A program made the translations under genes and the position numbers. Shown here piece after piece: positions 27,791 through 58,218 of a stretch of 64,000 nt of DNA. The notes under the pieces are model-generated. The model was given only the letters and a program-made list of their open reading frames with translations. It searched no databases and was not told the DNA's origin. The DNA comes from the human T2T-CHM13v2.0 reference genome, Homo sapiens. Each line of letters begins with the position of its first letter. Positions within the stretch are counted from its first letter, which is position 1. The stretch spans positions 13,344,001 through 13,408,000 of the forward strand of contig CP068257.2 in the NCBI GenBank assembly GCA_009914755.4. The letters are read 5' to 3'.

Positions 27791-28234
<444 letters not shown>

Positions 28235-41984: not shown

Positions 41985-43240
41985 TCACGACATTCCCTTT
42001 CTATGTGTATACACTCTGGAAGGCGGTTGGAGGATCACTACCTTCCCCTTCTATGTGTGTACACTCTGGAAGGCGCTCGGAGGATCACCACATTCCCTTT
42101 CTATGTGTGTACACTCTGGAAGGCACTCAGAGGATCACCACATTCCCTTTCTATGTGTGTACACTCTGGAAGGTGTTCAGAGGTTCACCACATTCCCTTT
42201 CTATGTGTATACTCTGGAAGGCGGTTGGAGGTTCACTACATTCCCTTTCTATGTGTGTACACTCTGGAAGGCGCTCGGAGGATCACCACATTCCCTTTCT
42301 ATGTGTATACACTCTGGAAGGCGCACGGAGGATCACCACATTCCCTTTCTATGTGTGTACACTCTGGAAGGCGTTCAGAGGTTCACCACATTCCCTTTCT
42401 ATGTGTATACACTCTGGAAGGTGGTTGGAGGTTCACCACATTCCCTTTCTATGTGTATACACTCTGGAAGGCGGTTGGAGGTTCACCACATTCCCTTTCT
42501 ATGTGTATACACTCTGGAAGGCGCTCGGAGGATCACCACATTCCCTTTCTGTGTGTATACACTCTGGAAGGCGCTCGGAGGATCACCACATTCCCTTTCT
42601 ATGTGTATACACTCTGGAAGGCGCTCGGAGGATCACCACATTCCCTTTCTATGTGTGTACACTCTGGAAGGCGTTCAGAGGTTCACCACATTCCCTTTCT
42701 ATGTATATACACTCTGGAAGGCGGTTGGAGGTTCACCACATTCCCTTTCTATGTGTATACACTCTGGAAGGCGCTCGGAGGATCACCACATTCCCTTTCT
42801 ATGTGTATACACTCTGGAAGGCGCTCGGAGGATCACTACATTCCCTTTCTATGTGTATACACTCTGGAAGGCGCTCGGAGGATCACCACATTCCCTTTCT
42901 ATGTGTATACACTCTGGAAGGCGCTCGGAGGATCACCACATTCCCTTTCTATGTGTATACACTCTGGAAGGCGCTCGGAGGATCACCACATTCCCTTTCT
43001 ATGTGTGTACACTCTGGAAGGCGTTCAGAGGTTCACCACATTCCCTTTCTATGTGTATACACTCTGGAAGGTGGTTGGAGGTTCACCACATTCCCTTTCT
43101 ATGTGTATACACTCTGAAAGGTGCTCAAAGGACACCACATTCCCTTTCTATGTGTGTACACTCTGGAAGGCGCTTGGAGGATCACCACATTCCCTTTCTA
43201 TGTGTATACACTCTGGAAGGCGCTTGGAGGACACCATCAT
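41985..43240. repeat. Minisatellite / VNTR-like tandem array: about 25 copies of a 50-bp unit (consensus about 'ctatgtgtatacactctggaaggcgctcggaggatcaccacattcccttt'), with three recurring unit variants arranged in a higher-order pattern
   Basis: Unit starts recur every 50 bp from about 42001 (42051, 42101, 42151 ...). One 48-49-bp copy at about 42201 shifts later copies to 42249, 42299 and so on; the partial first copy begins at 41985. Variants: A 'ggcgctcggaggatcaccac', B 'ggcgttcagaggttcaccac', C 'ggcggttggaggttcaccac'. The pair B-C recurs after runs of A at units 4-5, 8-9, 14-15 and 21-22. The last copies degenerate into 'ggaggacaccatcattcatctgag'. Confidence 0.95.
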
Positions 43241-44128
43241 TCATCTGAGATGCTCCCACTCATCTCTGAAGTAATCCTAAGTTCAAAGTGGAGGAAGGAA
43301 GTAGGTCAGTGATAGTTTGACCCAAAGGGGTAATTTTGAGTCAAAGGGTTTTGATTTTTAGCTCAAAGCCAAGCCATTAATAACAAAGCCAGAACTATGA
43401 CTATCCAAAACAAGAACTCTTCAAATTCTCACTACAACCACCTAACAAACCACACACTGCCTCATTATAAAAGTCTTAAAAACTTTGAAAATTCTAATAA
43501 ACTCCTTGTACTATCAAGTAACTTACTGTAGACAAAATAGAAGATATTTTTTAAAACTTTCCTATAGGATAAACCTAACTCTATCCTTAACACAGTATCT
43601 GTAATATACAGTAATTGTTTAGTTATCAGTAGTTTTAGTAGCTGTCATTTTTGAAAAAATATTTGGATAAATGATGGCTCTAAAAAAAAAAACCGTTCGA
43701 AGTCACTGAAAAAAAGTAGGTATTTCCTTCAAAACCTTCTCACCATATTCTCTAATAGTAAACAAAGGCTTAAAGTTATTCTGTTGGTAAAACTTCAAAA
43801 AGCAGCAACTGAATCAATTTAACTAAGGACTTTAGTCCAGAGAGGATGTCTTGCTCATTGTAAGGTTGACTACAGAGGTCTACTGATTTCAGATCCAATC
43901 CCTGCTTCCTTCTGCTCTCCCCTGGTCACACTACATTCAGGAAATGAAGCAGGAGATGCAGCAGAAGGGTGAGTTAAGACTGGAATTAAAAGTCTGAAGC
44001 CACAGAAGGACCAAAAGATGTGTGTGATGTAAAAATGATTTTACAAAAATATAAAGTAGTCTGTTTGATTTCAAATATGGTTCTTTTAAATAATGGGCCA
44101 CTGAGAAAGCTGAAAAATTAAAATGATC

Positions 44129-44630
<502 letters not shown>

Positions 44631-44869
44631 TCAAAACCACCACATCACAGCCTGTGTCAACTTCAATCCATTTACCCATAAACACTACTTTGGCTGAAAT
44701 GCAGTTTCTTAAAGATTTTAAGTAGCCTCAAGTATACTTCTATACTGTAATGGTGACTTTCAACATGGAATGTAAGTTTTAAAACAATTATCGAGTGGGT
44801 TATTGTCAGTTATCATTATTAACTTTATTAATTAGACACTAGTAAATACCTGTTACAATACTGCTAAGA

Positions 44870-45015
44870 CATACATTATTTCACTTAATCATTAATTGTA
44901 AAATAGATACTATCCAATTTTACAGATGAGGCTGAGAAGTTTGGTGACTTTCTCAGTTAAGGGGTAAATCTGGGATTCAAACTCAAGTCAGTGTGTTTCA
45001 CAGTAAGGCATTCCA
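44870..45015 (+). mobile_element. MIR SINE fragment
   Basis: 'tttcacttaatcattaattgtaaaatagatactatccaattttacagatgaggctgagaagtttggtgactttctcagttaaggggtaaatctgggattcaaactcaagtcag'. Confidence 0.5.
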
Positions 45016-46149
45016 CAATCACTCCCCAGTAAACCTCAACAGTGTGAGATCAATTGCCTTGGTCACCTGGTCTCCTGATCATTTCATGAAAAATTAACCA
45101 TCTGTTTACAAATCATTCATCAAATTTCTTGTTCCTGGAGCTATGCTAAAGACACAAATATAATTACAAGTCCTTGCTGGACCCCACTAGACTCTTTAAA
45201 TAAAAATATGTTCCTAGGGTCATCTAGATTCTGGCAATTTCTATTGCAAATTCACCAAATCCCTTGCTTTTGTTACTACCACAGGATAAACACCCTGAAT
45301 TTCCCTTACTGGAATAAAGCCTGTTAAAACTTTTTGCAGGAAAATCTCTAGGACTTTTTAGGTATCAAAAAGCTGAGGAAATGTTGGTACTTTAAAATAA
45401 ATCCTGACCCAGTAAGAACTGGCACTGAGCCTTTTATTTTCTTGCAGTCAGCAAAACTACAAACCTATAAAAATTCAAATAGTAGTTAAGGGGCATGCAT
45501 TTTGAAGTAGTTCCATATGTGGTGAGTCACTTCCAAACTCATGCTTTATACTGAAAACTTTTTTTAACCTGGATATGTAGGCAGAAATCACTTTTAAAAC
45601 CTATCACAGCCATACTATGAAACGAAAAGCAAGTCCATGTGGGAGTTTACTAATTGTTTCCCCTGAAAACTGTTTTCCTGGGGGGAAAAAATGAATATTA
45701 TTATTGACTCCTATGTACCACCTTGCTTTATAGTTCAAACAAATTCAGAAACTGTTTTTCCTAACCCAGTATTGATCTAGATATTTGCAAAAATGAAATG
45801 AAAGACAGGTTAATCATCCAACAAACATAATACACAAGTGTGTATGAGGAGAGGAGAGCTGGAGGAAGTGGAAAGAACTAGGTCAGTAGGTGGCAGATGT
45901 TAAGTGGTTCAAACTTGAAAGGAATCCTAAAAGCATGGACCGAGGTTTGTGGAAACTCTTAAAAGTAAATGAACATAAAAAATAAAAAATAAAAATAAAA
46001 ATGTGTGGAAGAAAGGTTCTAATTAGAAGGACATGGTGATTAAGTAAAACAGTGATCATCCAAAAACCTATTTTCTTTGTTTTGAAAAATACATTAGAAT
46101 TAACAATATTGTCCATAACACATTATCTTTCTATAGCATTACACTGATG

Positions 46150-46320
46150 CACTTTATGTATTTCCTCATTTATTCTGCATAATATTCTTATGATGTAAGA
46201 TGTATCCTCATCTTACAGATCAAAAAACTGAAGCTCAGGTTAACTGATTTACTAAGAGTATATGTGAAGATGCAGGGCTCAAATATAAATCTTAGGATTC
46301 TAAAGCCATCATTTTCCATA
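46150..46320 (+). mobile_element. MIR SINE fragment
   Basis: 'cactttatgtatttcctcatttattctgcataatattcttatgatgtaagatgtatcctcatcttacagatcaaaaaactgaagctcaggttaactgatttactaagagtatatgtgaagatgcagggctcaaatataaatcttagg'. Confidence 0.45.
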
Positions 46321-46727
46321 CTATTCTATTTAACTGTGGCTGTGACAGTAGCTGCTCTTAATGCCTACTCAAGAGGTAAAAGAGAAATATACCCTTTGTT
46401 TTAAATTTTTTTAAAAAAATAACAATTACCTCTGCTTTTTCTGAAGAGAAAACAGGAATCCTTATATCTCAAATAAATGTTTTCTTTTAAAATACAAGTT
46501 TACAAGGTAATAAGTAGTATTCATGTGATAAGTTTATCAGAAACAAGTCTAAATGCCTGAGCCAATTTAAATAGTTCACATTTATTCATTTCATACAATG
46601 TTGCTATAAAAATAAAGTCTGTATAATTCTCATTTTACATTAAAGTAACCAAGATGAAGAGAGGTTATACTAATAAAAGGTTTAAAACTAAGAAAATAGC
46701 TTTCTGTGGTCACCAGACTAAGTTTAA

Positions 46728-47019
<292 letters not shown>

Positions 47020-50000
47020 TCGTGATGTATATGACTTTCTAACAAATACTGTAATGATGCTATTCATCCTTAATAGAAATCCATGGGAGTATTTAAATAA
47101 TACAATAATGTTAACGATTTCTTATTTTCTGAAATTACTGCGAAAATGGCAAATTAGCAGTAACTCAGTAGAGGAGTATCACTATTAATACAAACTGCAT
47201 GCCCATGTTTTTAAAACACTTACAAAAGTAACTTTAATAACACTCCTTGTGAGGTTATATCCATTTCTATGACAATAAACAGGCTGTCTTTCAGAATTTT
47301 TGTTTGTGATATGAATAAAGCCAGAAGATCAATATTTTTTTAACCTACACTGGAAAAAAATGCTGAATATTTTCTAAACTTTATGCCCTAGATAATAAAG
47401 GGCTGTGTATACTGCCCACATAATCTAGATGGCCAATAAAGTTAACTTCCCAAACCTATTCAGTTGCCAAAAGGGTATCCCAATTGCACATCATATTTTG
47501 TTACAGTAAAGAAGATTGAGAAACTATAATCATTTCCTCCTCCCAAATTCAGTTTCTGCTACTACTCCGTGTCACCAACATCTCAGCATTTAAATACATA
47601 AAACCACAGTCAGCCCAAATGTTCAGGGTCTATGTATGATTACAGAATTCATCTTTGCTTATGCTGCTGATTCTATGAAACTCATTTCCTCCTTTAACCT
47701 TTTACCATTTCTTTCTGTGAACTAAATTTACACCCACTACCCAGATATACATGATCTTCAGATTTTGGGGGTTTTTTTGGAGGGGGGGATATCTCTGAAA
47801 GTCAAACTTATTTCATTCTTAGATACTGTTCTTAGCACGAGAACCATGCCCTAATCAAATAAAAAAAAAAGTCACTATCCCCAATTCAGTCCCATTTAGA
47901 ATCTCCACTAGCCAGGCAGGCTACTTAGCAATATTTAAAAAATACTCTTAAGAAATAGAATTGAAAAGGTTGGGTTTATCTTGAAGAAATTTAGGGAAAT
48001 CTGTGAAATGATTCTTTTTTAAAAATATACTTTACCCCAATGTGAATTAAATATGAAAAACTAAGGATAAATTTTGGGAAGTTAACAAAACTTTTATCTT
48101 TGAAATTGTTACATTCTAAGCAGGTAATTTATTACTTTCACCAAAAGCGTTTGTACTTTCCCTCTTGATGAACAGCAAAGAATATTAAGTCTATAGTAAC
48201 TTATAAGGAAATAATAAGCAAAATTTAAGCAAAATAATAAGCAAAATTTGTTTAGCTAACATATTAAATAAATTTTGCTTATTCAGGTAAGGAACATTAA
48301 AAGAGCATTCTACATATCACAGTAAGTTAAGTCAAAGAAATGTACATATTCAACAAAATAAAGTCTGAGTACTGTCATAATTACCCATATCACACTTTGC
48401 AACCTGTAAATTTCTAACACACATGATATCATTTCAAGTCTTCATACAAAGCACATGAAAAAACTGTTGCACAAATGTAAGTAACTTGCGTAATATAACA
48501 AAGATGAACTTTTATCTTTTTTGATCGTTTCTAAGCTTTAAAATTATATCAGGACACACTCTGGAGTTGTGTTTCACCAATACTTTGATTTATCACCCTA
48601 TATGTGGGAGGCATCAAGTTGAGTGCTTTGTAAGTCACAAATTTATAAAAGATACAACCCCCTCCATCTAGAAGTTTATAATTTTGCTGCAGCGATGAAT
48701 GAAACGCTATGAAAAATAAAGGCAGTGTGAATGGCATTCATCAACCACTAGGAGAAAGTAGATGGGAGCACATGTTCCCTTCTGTCCGAGTGATCATACA
48801 AATCACAGGATGGATGGCCTTTTGGTAAAAGAAAACTAGTAGGGTTCAAAAGACATCTGAGCTGAAGATAGCAAAAATAATGTGGCAGAATAAGAAATGT
48901 GCAATTAACATGCTTAAGGAAGGGGCAAACCAAATATTTGATCATGAGATATGCAAGGAACCAGGTAGAAATAGGACTTGTCTTATCTTGTGAGCAAAGG
49001 TCTTTGTTCAGGGTAATAATAATTTTCTGCAGAAAGTTTTACTTTGCTGTGTAGAATGTATTGGGTAATAAAAACTAAAAGGCAAAAGACCAAATAGAAA
49101 GTTACTGCAGTAACTATCTAATAACTATCTAATAATCAGAACGTAATAAAGCCTGAATTTGGAAAATGGCAGTGGAAAGACAAAGAAACCAAAACTCATA
49201 ATTCTTCCTGTTCCAATGAAAATGATTATTGACATAGTCATAATTAGGGTTGACTGCAATCAAATGTTAAATATGTAAAGGTGTAATATAAAACCAAGAA
49301 CCTGCCAACAGACTTTCAGGAAAGACTTTGATCACATTTATCATCTCATATTTATCCTACAATGTAACAAACATTATAATGTCCCCTTTGAATGTATTCT
49401 AGGGTACCATATACCATAACTTGGTATGTCTTTAATTAAATTTTTGTACTATTTTAAAAACATTTATTGTAGTTGACCTAAAAATAAAACTTTGAGAACT
49501 ACAATTAGATACCACCTGTATAAAATGAAAGCCAAACTATACTTCTCTTTCCAAAGAGGAAATTTGGAAAAATTACTTTCCAAAACCTTTTGAGCTCTGC
49601 CTGATCTATACTAAGATACCAAAATATAATGTATGTCTCCTATATTTTACAGAAACAGAAGAAATCTTTTATAAATGTACTTCTCAGACTGATTACCAAC
49701 ATAATTTTATTATCCAAATGAAAAAAACACATATTTATACCTATAAGAAAAATTACCTGACCATAATAATAAACCCTATTTTTTGAAAACTTCATATTTA
49801 CATATTACCTTTCAAAGGGATGTGTATGTCAGTTTGATGAAAAAAACTACTTTCAAATTATTCAAATCATCCAAATGTATTCTTATGCTTATAACTTACA
49901 ATTTTTGTTTTCATTTCCTTTAAATATTCCCTGCCCCAGAAAACCTATAAAGGCAAATTTTCAGAAATAAAAAAAAATGTGTATCTTCTCCATGCATTCA

Positions 50001-56130: not shown

Positions 56131-58218
56131 ATCAATTAATATGCCAGGCTTAAGTAAAAATATAAAAGAGAAGACGGTAGTTTTATATGGACCAACTACA
56201 ATGAAAAATATATGCCTTTAATTACTACACACACATGCACATTCTCTCTCTCATCCACTCATTCACTGTCAGTTCTTCATCAGTAAGACTCCTCCAGTAT
56301 CTTATTTCAATGCTCTCCTAATCCCCCCGGCCCAGACAATCAGCCTGGTTGGGTGGTAGGTGTCCATTCTACCCAGATGAGTTGGGACTCTAGTGTCGCT
56401 GTCTGACGTCCTATACCAACCAGCATGGTACTCAGGCATTATTAATACAAGTCTCTAAGCACATAAAGGCATACCTCAGAGATATAGTGGGTTCCATTCC
56501 AGATCACTAAAATAAAGCAAATATCACAATAAAGCAAGTCACACAAGTTTTTTGGTTTCCTAGTGCACATAAAAGTTATGTTTACACTGTACTATAGTCT
56601 ATTAAGTGTGCAAAAGCTTTATGTCGAAACAATGTACATACCTTAGTATAAAAATACTTTATTGCTAAAAATGCTAACAATCATGTGAATCTTTAGAGAG
56701 TTTTACTCTTCAGTGGTGGGCACCTTGCCTCCATATTGATGGCTGCCAAATGATCAGGCTTGTGGTTGCTGAAGGTTGGGGTCTCTGTAATGATTTCTTA
56801 AAACAAGACAACAATGAAGTTTGCCACATCGGCTGATTCTTCCTTTCACAGAATAATTCTCTGTAGCATGTAATGCTGTTTGATAGCATTTTACCCACAG
56901 TAGAATATCTTTCTAGATGGGAGTCAATCCTCTCAAACCCTGCCACTGTTTTATCAATTATGTTTACATGATATTCTAAATCCTTCGTTGTTATTTCAAC
57001 AATGTTCACAGTATCTTCAATCAGGAGTAGATTCCATCTCTAGTAACTACTTTCTTTGCTCATCTATAAGGAGTAACTCCTCATCCGTCCATGTTTTCTC
57101 ATGAGATTATACAAATTCAGTCACATCTTCAGGCTCCACTTCTAATTCTAGTTTTCTTGCAATTTCCACCACATCTGCAGTTACTTCCTCCACTGATGTC
57201 TTCAACCCGCCAAAGTTATCCATAAGGGGTGGAAGCAGCTTCTTTCAAACTCCTATTAATGTTAGTATTTTGACCTCCTCCCATTAATCACAAATGTTCT
57301 CAATGGCATCTAGAATGGTGAATCCTTTTCAGAAGGTTTACAATTGCCTTTGCCCAGATCCATCAGAGGAATCACTATCTATGGCAACTACAGCTTCACA
57401 AGATGTATTTCTTCAATAGTAAGACTTGAAAGTTGAAATTACTCCTTGATCCACAGGCTACAGAATAGATGTTGTATTAGCAGCCATGAAAATTAACATT
57501 AACTTCCTTGTACATCTCCATCAGAGCTCTTGAGTGACCAGGTGCGTGGTCAATAAACAGTAATATTTCGATAGGAATCTTTTTTTTCTGAGCAGTTGGT
57601 CTCAAGAGGGGGCCTAAAATATTCAGCAAACCATGCTGTAAACAGATGTTCTGTCATCCAGGCTTCTTCTTCCATTTATACAGCATAGGTAGAAGAGATT
57701 TAGTATAATTCTTAAGGGGCTTAGGATTTTTGGAATGGCCAAACATTGGTTTCCACTTCAAGTCACCAGCTGTATTATCCACTAACAAGAAAGTCAGTTT
57801 GTCCTTTGAGGTTCTGAGGCCAGGCATTGGTTTCTCCTCTCTAGCTATTAAAGTCCTAGATGGCATATTCATCCAACAGAAGGCTGTTTCATTTACACTG
57901 AAAATCTGCTGTTTAATGTAGCCATCTTCATCAATGATCTTACCTAGATCTTCTGGAAGCTTGCTGTAGCTTCTACATCAGCATTACCTGCTTCATCGTG
58001 CACTTTTATGTTATCCAGGCAGCTTCTATCCTTAAACTTCATGAACAAACCTCTGCTAGCTTCCAACTTTTCTTCTGCAGTTTCTTCATCTCCTCTCGGC
58101 CTTTGTGGAATTAGAGTGAGGCGCTGCTCTGGATTAGGTTTTGGCTTAAGGGAATGTTATGGCTGCTTTGATTTTCTAGGCAGACTACTAAAATATTCTC
58201 CATATTAGCAATAAGGCT

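What the first reader, a model, noticed from the sequence alone, without database searches (positions are those of the whole stretch)
41985..43240. 1.25-kb minisatellite of about 25 x 50-bp units with higher-order (A)n-B-C organisation; stop-free in all three + frames
The array was read directly. Units recur with a 50-bp period from about 42001, and there are three unit variants. In my reading the variant pair B ('gcgttcagaggttcacc') followed by C ('gcggttggaggttcacc') recurs after runs of A ('gcgctcggaggatcacc') of increasing length. That pattern suggests expansion by unequal exchange of multi-unit blocks rather than single-unit slippage. The unit is about 50% GC and retains CpGs ('gcgctcgg') in an otherwise AT-rich, CpG-poor region. 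That retention points to recent homogenisation or protection from methylation. Because 50 is not a multiple of 3 and the + strand unit lacks TAA/TAG/TGA, all three + frames stay open across the array. This produces the three overlapping 370-423-aa 'ORFs' in the track, which are artefacts. Arrays of this size with internal variant structure are classic hypervariable VNTRs and can act as copy-number-dependent regulatory or recombination elements. Whether this one is annotated or polymorphic cannot be told from the sequence.
Basis: seen in the sequence. Interest (0 to 1): 0.5.

Follow-up and report, generated by a model that had tools for sequence, protein, structure and literature searches.

The report
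Ordinary non-coding 50-bp primate minisatellite
This is a real 1.26-kb tandem array of about 25 copies of a 50-bp unit in AT-rich, Alu-bearing primate DNA, an ordinary non-coding minisatellite whose three long "ORFs" are side-effects of a unit that happens to lack stop codons.

Summary
Tandem Repeats Finder reports one array at 41983-43242 with period 50, 25.3 copies, 92% matches and no indels. It is the only large tandem array in the window. The unit variants read C | AABC | AABCC | AAABC | AAAAABC | AAA. B is followed by C in 4 of 4 cases (permutation p = 0.0014). Exact multi-unit blocks of 153 and 141 nt recur 7 and 13 units apart, so multi-unit duplication is supported.

The three + strand ORFs (423, 370 and 397 aa) have no homologue among 5.8 billion protein clusters and no credible Pfam domain. 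They are explained by a stop-free 50-mer, which has about a 10% chance for a random unit of this composition.

CpG o/e is raised (0.43 against 0.23 in the window) but is not at CpG-island level. All four CpG positions already carry TpG/CpA variants. This favours young copies over protection from methylation.

The array has sharp ends, no flank homology, no transposon hallmarks, no PRDM9 13-mer and no Jeffreys core. The window is primate (11 Alu matches). The locus could not be placed, so polymorphism and regulatory effect remain untested. Interest is low.

The parts
41983..43242 (.). Whole minisatellite array: 25.3 head-to-tail copies of a 50-bp unit, consensus GATCACCACATTCCCTTTCTATGTGTATACACTCTGGAAGGCGCTCGGAG
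   Evidence: TRF; unit table; 25 of 25 motif matches lie inside the array
41983..42032 (.). Unit 1, a degenerate C-like edge unit (5' boundary)
   Evidence: no unit homology further left
42033..42230 (.). Module 1: A A' B' C (units 2-5). These are older, more diverged units. Unit 5 has a 2-nt deletion (48 nt)
42231..42480 (.). Module 2: A A' B C' C (units 6-10), with a duplicated C
42481..42730 (.). Module 3: A A A B C (units 11-15)
42731..43080 (.). Module 4: A A A A A B C' (units 16-22). It contains the run of identical A units
43081..43242 (.). Three degenerate terminal A-like units (23-25). Unit 23 is 49 nt and carries the only + strand stop (TGA 43115-43117)
42552..42704 (.). Exact 153-nt multi-unit block, repeated at 42902-43054 (lag 350 bp = 7 units)
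42326..42466 (.). Exact 141-nt multi-unit block, repeated at 42976-43116 (lag 650 bp = 13 units)
42003..43274 (+). Artefactual ORF, 423 aa
   Evidence: no homologue; no credible Pfam domain
42005..43117 (+). Artefactual ORF, 370 aa, ended by the TGA in unit 23
42055..43248 (+). Artefactual ORF, 397 aa

Best explanation
This is a non-coding minisatellite in AT-rich, repeat-rich primate (probably human) DNA. A 50-bp unit was amplified in tandem by the usual tandem-repeat processes: replication slippage, unequal sister-chromatid or interallelic exchange, and gene conversion. An early (A)n-B-C module of roughly 200 bp was duplicated about four times as a block. Later, A units were amplified on their own, mainly in the 3' half. 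The edge units escaped homogenisation and decayed. The array most likely has no sequence-specific function. The long + strand ORFs arise only because the unit lacks TAA, TAG and TGA and because 50 is not a multiple of 3. Shown: the array, its variant map, the block repeats, the CpG decay and the absence of coding evidence. Inferred: the order of events, neutrality, and the molecular mechanism of amplification.
For: TRF gives period 50, 25.3 copies, 92% matches, and it is the only such array in the window. The variant map is C AABC AABCC AAABC AAAAABC AAA. B is followed by C 4 of 4 times, permutation p = 0.0014. Exact blocks of 153 nt and 141 nt recur at lags of 7 and 13 units. Interior A units are identical while the edge units differ by 4-11 positions from the others. 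That is the pattern expected when homogenisation acts in the interior. The unit is absent from the rest of the window. The flanks show no homology to it above shuffled controls. No direct or inverted repeats bracket the array. For the ORFs, there are 0 hits among 5.8 billion protein clusters. Pfam matches have no individually significant domain stretch. The minus strand has 18-20 stops per frame. About 10% of random 50-mers of this composition are stop-free on a given strand. The longest ORF elsewhere in the window is 140 aa and Alu-derived. The primate context rests on 11 Alu matches. VNTRs make up about 3% of the human genome and commonly vary in motif composition (abstracts of 10.1101/2022.10.07.511371 and PMC10234305, listed).
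Against: Neutrality was not tested. No population, cross-species, methylation, chromatin or expression data could be reached. No RepeatMasker-type library was available, so an origin inside an old, unrecognised transposable element is not fully excluded. RNA folding of 300 nt gives z = -4.1. This is expected for a tandem repeat whose unit holds an imperfect palindrome (CCTTTCTATGTGTA/TACACTCTGGAAGG), and the DNA fold gives z = 0.2.
Confidence: 0.8

Rival explanations
1. It is a copy-number-dependent cis-regulatory VNTR (an eVNTR). The 25 units present tandem transcription-factor sites, so array length tunes a nearby gene. Candidate sites, recalled from memory and not tested, are CATTCC (a TEAD/M-CAT-like core), TGTGGT (a RUNX-like core on the minus strand) and GGAA cores.
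For: The array is GC-richer than its surroundings (48.6% against 35.9%) and has raised CpG o/e (0.43 against 0.23). Every unit carries the same short motifs. VNTR length and motif composition are reported to affect expression at many human loci (PMC10234305 and PMC11701250, abstracts).
Against: There is no direct evidence here. The motif assignments are from memory, and short cores of this kind occur by chance in any 50-mer. CpG sites are decaying as in methylated, inactive DNA. No gene could be identified nearby.
Confidence: 0.1
2. It is the internal VNTR of a transposable element, or one locus of a dispersed multi-locus tandem-repeat family, rather than a locus-specific minisatellite.
For: Many primate minisatellites sit inside transposons (own knowledge; SVA and several LTRs carry VNTRs). 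The window is rich in repeats: Alus, plus sequences that from memory look like L1, L2 and MaLR.
Against: The unit occurs nowhere else in the 64-kb window. No LTR-like direct repeats or terminal inverted repeats bracket it. The flanks are not repeated within the 14-kb region searched, 36000-50000. There is no exact match to the unit core in IMG/VR, JGI metagenome or GTDB genome contigs. Those collections are poor in primate DNA, so this last point is weak.
Confidence: 0.08
3. It is a real protein-coding repeat: a 150-nt, 50-aa super-period read in one frame.
For: Three + frames stay open for 1131-1293 nt. This is far longer than any other ORF in the window.
Against: All three frames are open for the same trivial reason. 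There is no homologue in 5.8 billion clusters and no significant Pfam domain. The 48-nt and 49-nt units shift the frame. Unit copy-number changes that are not multiples of 3 would frameshift any product. The open frames end within about 30 nt of the array edges, so the open reading does not extend beyond the repeat as it would in a larger coding exon.
Confidence: 0.02

Closest known systems
Human non-coding VNTRs/minisatellites as catalogued genome-wide (TRF simple-repeat type loci; vamos, TRCompDB and similar catalogues)
   Same: Head-to-tail array, a unit in the 10-100 bp range, about 1.3 kb in length, motif-composition heterogeneity, degenerate edges, and a location in non-coding AT-rich DNA (context from the abstracts).
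   Different: Nothing categorical. It is longer and more homogeneous than the typical catalogue entry. Its copy-number polymorphism was not tested.
MSY1 (DYF155S1) and other minisatellites with modular structure studied by variant-repeat (MVR) mapping
   Same: Variant repeat types lie in blocks or modules rather than at random, which implies amplification of blocks and of single types. [quoted passage not shown]
   Different: MSY1 has 25-bp AT-rich units and sits on the Y chromosome. Here the unit is 50 bp at 49% GC, the chromosome is unknown, and there are no population maps.
Classical GC-rich hypervariable minisatellites (Jeffreys core family: MS1, MS31, MS32, CEB1)
   Same: Tandem array with internal variants.
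   Different: It is not GC-rich (48.6%). There is no Jeffreys core match and no PRDM9 13-mer in the array. Strand asymmetry is only modest (GC skew -0.08). A subtelomeric position is unknown.
Alpha-satellite-style higher-order repeats
   Same: Multi-unit blocks recur (exact 141-153-nt blocks at lags of 7 and 13 units).
   Different: There is no fixed higher-order period. Module lengths are 4, 5, 5 and 7 units. TRF finds only period 50, and the mean unit distance shows only a shallow minimum at lags 4-6.

Membership tests
Minisatellite (tandem repeat, unit about 10-100 bp) | Head-to-tail tandem copies with a constant period of 10-100 bp | tested here: met
   Period 50, 25.3 copies, 92% matches, 0% indels; spacings are 50 except 48 and 49 once each
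Minisatellite (tandem repeat, unit about 10-100 bp) | Array length of about 0.1-20 kb at a discrete locus with unique flanks | tested here: met
   1260 bp; unit absent elsewhere in the window; flanks unrelated to the unit
VNTR in the strict sense (variable number) | Copy number differs between individuals | not testable with these tools
   No primate population or pangenome data. The unit is not found in the metagenome, viral or prokaryotic collections
Classical hypervariable GC-rich minisatellites | High GC content with purine/pyrimidine strand asymmetry | tested here: not met
   GC 48.6%; GC skew -0.078 and AT skew -0.173 over 42001-43000
Classical hypervariable GC-rich minisatellites | Jeffreys core-like sequence (GGAGGTGGGCAGGARG) in the unit | tested here: not met
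   No match with up to 3 mismatches inside 41983-43242
Classical hypervariable GC-rich minisatellites | Association with a meiotic recombination hotspot (PRDM9 13-mer as a proxy) | tested here: not met
   CCNCCNTNNCCNC has 4 matches in the window, none in or within 6 kb of the array. The motif is only a proxy, and hotspot activity itself is not testable here
CpG island | GC above 50% and CpG o/e above 0.6 over at least 200 bp | tested here: not met
   Array GC 0.486 and o/e 0.433. The best interior stretch (units 11-21) has GC 0.493 and o/e 0.575
Protein-coding tandem repeat | Unit or super-unit kept in one reading frame, with a product that has homologues or domains | tested here: not met
   The period is 50. 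The 2-nt and 1-nt indels shift the frame. There are no homologues and no significant Pfam domain
Transposon-internal VNTR (SVA- or LTR-type) | Array flanked by recognisable element parts (LTRs, TIRs, Alu-like or SINE-R parts, poly-A, target-site duplications) | tested here: inconclusive
   No bracketing direct or inverted repeats and no recognisable element in the immediate flanks by eye. No repeat library was available

The most novel reading that the evidence does not exclude
The array is a lineage-specific (hominid or human) expansion that acts as a length-dependent regulatory element. About 25 tandem copies of a unit carrying TEAD-like (CATTCC), RUNX-like (TGTGGT) and ETS-like (GGAA) cores, together with partly preserved CpGs, would form a variable-strength enhancer or methylation-sensitive element for a neighbouring gene.
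Probability: 0.08. Interest if true: 0.35.

Novelty: already known. Interest (0 to 1): 0.1.

Why it matters
It matters little beyond annotation hygiene. The three 370-423-aa ORFs should be masked as tandem-repeat artefacts and not carried forward as gene candidates. If the array proved to be length-polymorphic, it would be one more candidate eVNTR among tens of thousands. Its clear module structure (AABC / AABCC / AAABC / AAAAABC) would make it a convenient locus for following block versus single-unit mutation in long-read pedigrees.

Tried and rejected
1. Coding hypothesis. The 423-aa ORF was searched against 5.8 billion protein clusters and returned nothing. Pfam gave only repeat-summed sub-threshold hits with no significant stretch. 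Rejected.

2. Placing the locus or finding other copies. The unit core was searched as an exact pattern in JGI metagenome contigs, IMG/VR and GTDB genome contigs, with 0 hits each. Unit sub-strings were searched in PMC and bioRxiv full text, with 0 papers. They were also searched in the supplements of three VNTR papers, where there was nothing or no files were held. An exact look-up of a flank ORF found nothing on record. The genome, chromosome and neighbouring genes therefore remain unknown.

3. Rfam and tRNA scans of the window found nothing.

4. Six-frame Pfam scan of the flanks. The tool refuses translations that contain stops. Stop-free fragments that I took from memory to be Tigger transposase and L1 ORF2 gave no Pfam hit even at E <= 10. 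Those identifications stay unconfirmed.

5. Structure-driven explanation. The DNA fold of three units is no better than shuffles (z = 0.22). The RNA fold z of -4.1 is attributed to the per-unit imperfect palindrome repeated in tandem and is not taken as evidence of a structured RNA.

6. The bacterial promoter and terminator scan is irrelevant to a primate locus and was at background level.

7. Fixed higher-order period. TRF finds none. The lag analysis shows only a shallow minimum at lags 4-6.

Full report
**Observation**

Tandem Repeats Finder on 41000-44500 returns a single array at 41983-43242. It has period 50, 25.3 copies, 92% matches, 0% indels and score 2084. The consensus is GATCACCACATTCCCTTTCTATGTGTATACACTCTGGAAGGCGCTCGGAG.

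Run over the whole 64-kb window, TRF finds no other array of comparable size. Everything else is a microsatellite, a poly-T tract or a two-copy duplication. A 20-mer from the unit matches 25 times with up to 3 mismatches, always inside the array, against 0.00 expected from shuffles. Anchor spacing is 50 nt throughout, except 48 nt for unit 5 and 49 nt for unit 23.

**Variant structure**

- A = GCGCTCGGAGGATCACC
- B = GCGTTCAGAGGTTCACC
- C = GCGGTTGGAGGTTCACC

B units also always carry GTGTGTAC in place of GTGTATAC. The map of the 25 units is C | A A B C | A A B C C | A A A B C | A A A A A B C | A A A.

The A runs before each B-C pair are 2, 2, 3 and 5, which is non-decreasing rather than strictly increasing. 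There is one extra C, one leading C-like unit and three degenerate terminal units.

B is followed by C in 4 of 4 cases. Only 0.14% of random permutations of the same symbols reach this.

Exact multi-unit blocks recur:
- 153 nt at 42552-42704 and 42902-43054, a lag of 7 units.
- 141 nt at 42326-42466 and 42976-43116, a lag of 13 units.

Units 8, 14 and 21 (B) are identical, and units 9 and 22 (C with GTGG) are identical. Units 11, 13, 16, 19 and 20 show no differences from each other. Edge units (1-5, 23-25) differ from the rest at 4-11 positions.

This supports duplication of (A)nBC modules as blocks. It equally shows later amplification of A units alone in the 3' half, with poor homogenisation at the ends. 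There is no fixed higher-order period. TRF reports only period 50, and the mean unit distance has only a shallow minimum at lags 4-6.

**Boundaries and origin**

Local alignment of the 200-bp flanks against a unit trimer scores no better than shuffled flanks. The scores are 14 against a shuffle mean of 12.9 on the left, and 12 against 13.7 on the right. The ends are therefore sharp.

No direct or inverted repeats bracket the array. The only inverted pair nearby is two Alus at 44148-44426 and 46740-47018. By eye the flanks are unique sequence. An L2/MIR-like tail and an Alu fragment lie 1 kb upstream, and an Alu begins at about 44130 downstream (identifications from memory).

**Context**

The Alu core GGCTCACGCCTGTAATCCCAGCA matches 11 times with up to 3 mismatches, against 0 expected. 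The window is therefore primate and most likely human. It is AT-rich at 35.9% GC, with CpG o/e of 0.23.

No Rfam family or tRNA is present. I could not place the locus on a genome. The available collections hold essentially no primate DNA:
- The unit core has no exact match in JGI metagenome contigs, IMG/VR or GTDB genomes.
- A flank ORF is not on record.
- The unit is not quoted in the searchable literature.
- It is not in the held supplements of three VNTR papers.

**The ORFs**

The + strand has ORFs of 423, 370 and 397 aa across the array. The consensus unit, read circularly, has no TAA, TAG or TGA on the + strand. Because 50 is not a multiple of 3, every frame reads every phase of the unit, so all three frames stay open.

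The open stretches are 1272, 1131 and 1293 nt. One frame is closed by a TGA at 43115-43117, created by a G>A change in unit 23. The minus strand has 18-20 stops per frame. Simulation shows that about 10% of random 50-mers of the unit's composition are stop-free on a given strand, so this property is unremarkable.

The 423-aa translation has no homologue with E <= 0.001 among 5.8 billion protein clusters. Pfam returns only weak whole-sequence scores summed over repeats, with zero individually significant stretches. The 48-nt and 49-nt units shift the reading phase. The open frames end within about 30 nt of the array edges.

**CpG content**

The array has 32 CpGs. Its o/e is 0.43, rising to 0.58 in interior units 11-21. 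The window is at 0.23 and the 5-kb flanks at 0.19-0.22.

The four CpG positions of the unit (42, 43, 46, 47) all carry transition variants. C42T occurs in 4 units, G43A in 1, C46T in 8 and G47A in 6. These changes help define variants B and C. This is the footprint of methylated CpG decay.

Using commonly quoted human mutation rates (my own knowledge), seven identical 50-bp units are compatible with amplification within the last several million years. That is a loose bound.

**Hypervariability and function**

Classical hypervariable minisatellites are GC-rich, strand-asymmetric, core-bearing and hotspot-associated (established knowledge). This array does not fit that profile:
- GC is 48.6% and the skews are modest.
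- There is no match to the Jeffreys core with up to 3 mismatches inside the array.
- No PRDM9 13-mer lies in the array or within 6 kb of it.

High internal homogeneity and a length of 1.26 kb still make some copy-number variation likely, but this is an expectation and not a result.

Each unit holds short cores that I recall as TEAD-like (CATTCC), RUNX-like (TGTGGT on the minus strand) and ETS-like (GGAA), plus a 10-nt palindrome GTGTATACAC. None of this was tested. The DNA fold of three units is at background (z = 0.22). The RNA fold of six units gives z = -4.1, which I attribute to the per-unit imperfect palindrome repeated in tandem.

**Comparison with known kinds**

[quoted passage not shown] They are multiallelic in both length and motif composition (abstract of 10.1101/2022.10.07.511371), and motif composition can affect expression (PMC10234305). 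Modular variant structure is well known from MVR mapping of minisatellites such as MSY1 (PMC2599865), and minisatellite maps are modelled by amplification and contraction events (PMC2897807).

This array meets the structural definition of a minisatellite. It fails the tested features of the classical hypervariable GC-rich class, of a CpG island and of a coding repeat. Membership of a transposon-internal VNTR class is inconclusive because no repeat library was available.

**Verdict**

The feature is an ordinary non-coding minisatellite with a tidy modular variant map. Its ORFs should be discarded. It is not novel in kind, and interest is low (0.1). The most novel reading left open is a lineage-specific, length-dependent regulatory VNTR. 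I put that at about 8% probability, with modest interest if true.

Noticed in passing
window 41866-41937: A 70-nt almost pure purine (GA-rich) tract, gagggaggaaaacatggaaggagggagagaggaggataggtggtaaggagggaagaagggagg, lies about 45 bp upstream of the array. It shares the GGAAGG hexamer with the unit. Tracts of this kind can form triplex DNA and stall replication (own knowledge), which might have favoured slippage here.
   Followed up: partly
window 44148-44426 and 46740-47018: An inverted pair of Alu elements, 279 nt and 86% complementary, separated by 2.3 kb and about 0.9 kb downstream of the array. This is the sort of pair that forms dsRNA or editing substrates if transcribed.
   Followed up: no
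window 28071-28223: An (AAAG)n microsatellite of about 38 copies, 83% matches, at the tail of an Alu. It produces lysine/glutamate/arginine-rich and serine/phenylalanine/leucine-rich pseudo-ORFs of up to 127 aa. Long AAAG tracts are usually polymorphic (own knowledge).
   Followed up: no
window 43925-43952 (+): An exon-like arrangement: a pyrimidine tract plus cag, then GAAATGAAGCAGGAGATGCAGCAGAAGG, then gtgagttaag. It could be a small exon of an unannotated or non-coding transcript, which would make the array intronic. Pfam found nothing for the enclosing open segment.
   Followed up: partly
window 56713-58156 (-): Several stop-free fragments (for example ...ETAFCWMNMPSRTLIAREEKPMPGLRTSKDKLTFLL...) look, from memory, like a decayed pogo/Tigger transposase. 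Pfam gave no hit even at E <= 10, so this is unconfirmed.
   Followed up: partly
window 33066-33317 (+), 36059-36132 and 37430-37503: An ORF fragment (...LHCWWECKLVQPLWKTAWQVLKDLEAEITFDPAIPLLGIHLKDYKS...) resembles, from memory, the C-terminal part of L1 ORF2. A 74-nt direct repeat with 74% identity lies 1.4 kb apart. Both probably come from old L1 copies. Pfam did not confirm this.
   Followed up: partly
window 32474-32526: A perfect 27-bp tandem duplication, AAAGATATCTATATTGTATGATTCCAA x2, at 100% identity. This is a very recent small duplication.
   Followed up: no
window 41983-43242, each unit: Every unit contains the perfect 10-nt palindrome GTGTATACAC, or GTGTACAC in the G27 variant. It sits inside a 28-nt imperfect palindrome, CCTTTCTATGTGTA/TACACTCTGGAAGG. 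This explains the RNA fold z of -4.1, while the DNA fold is at background.
   Followed up: partly
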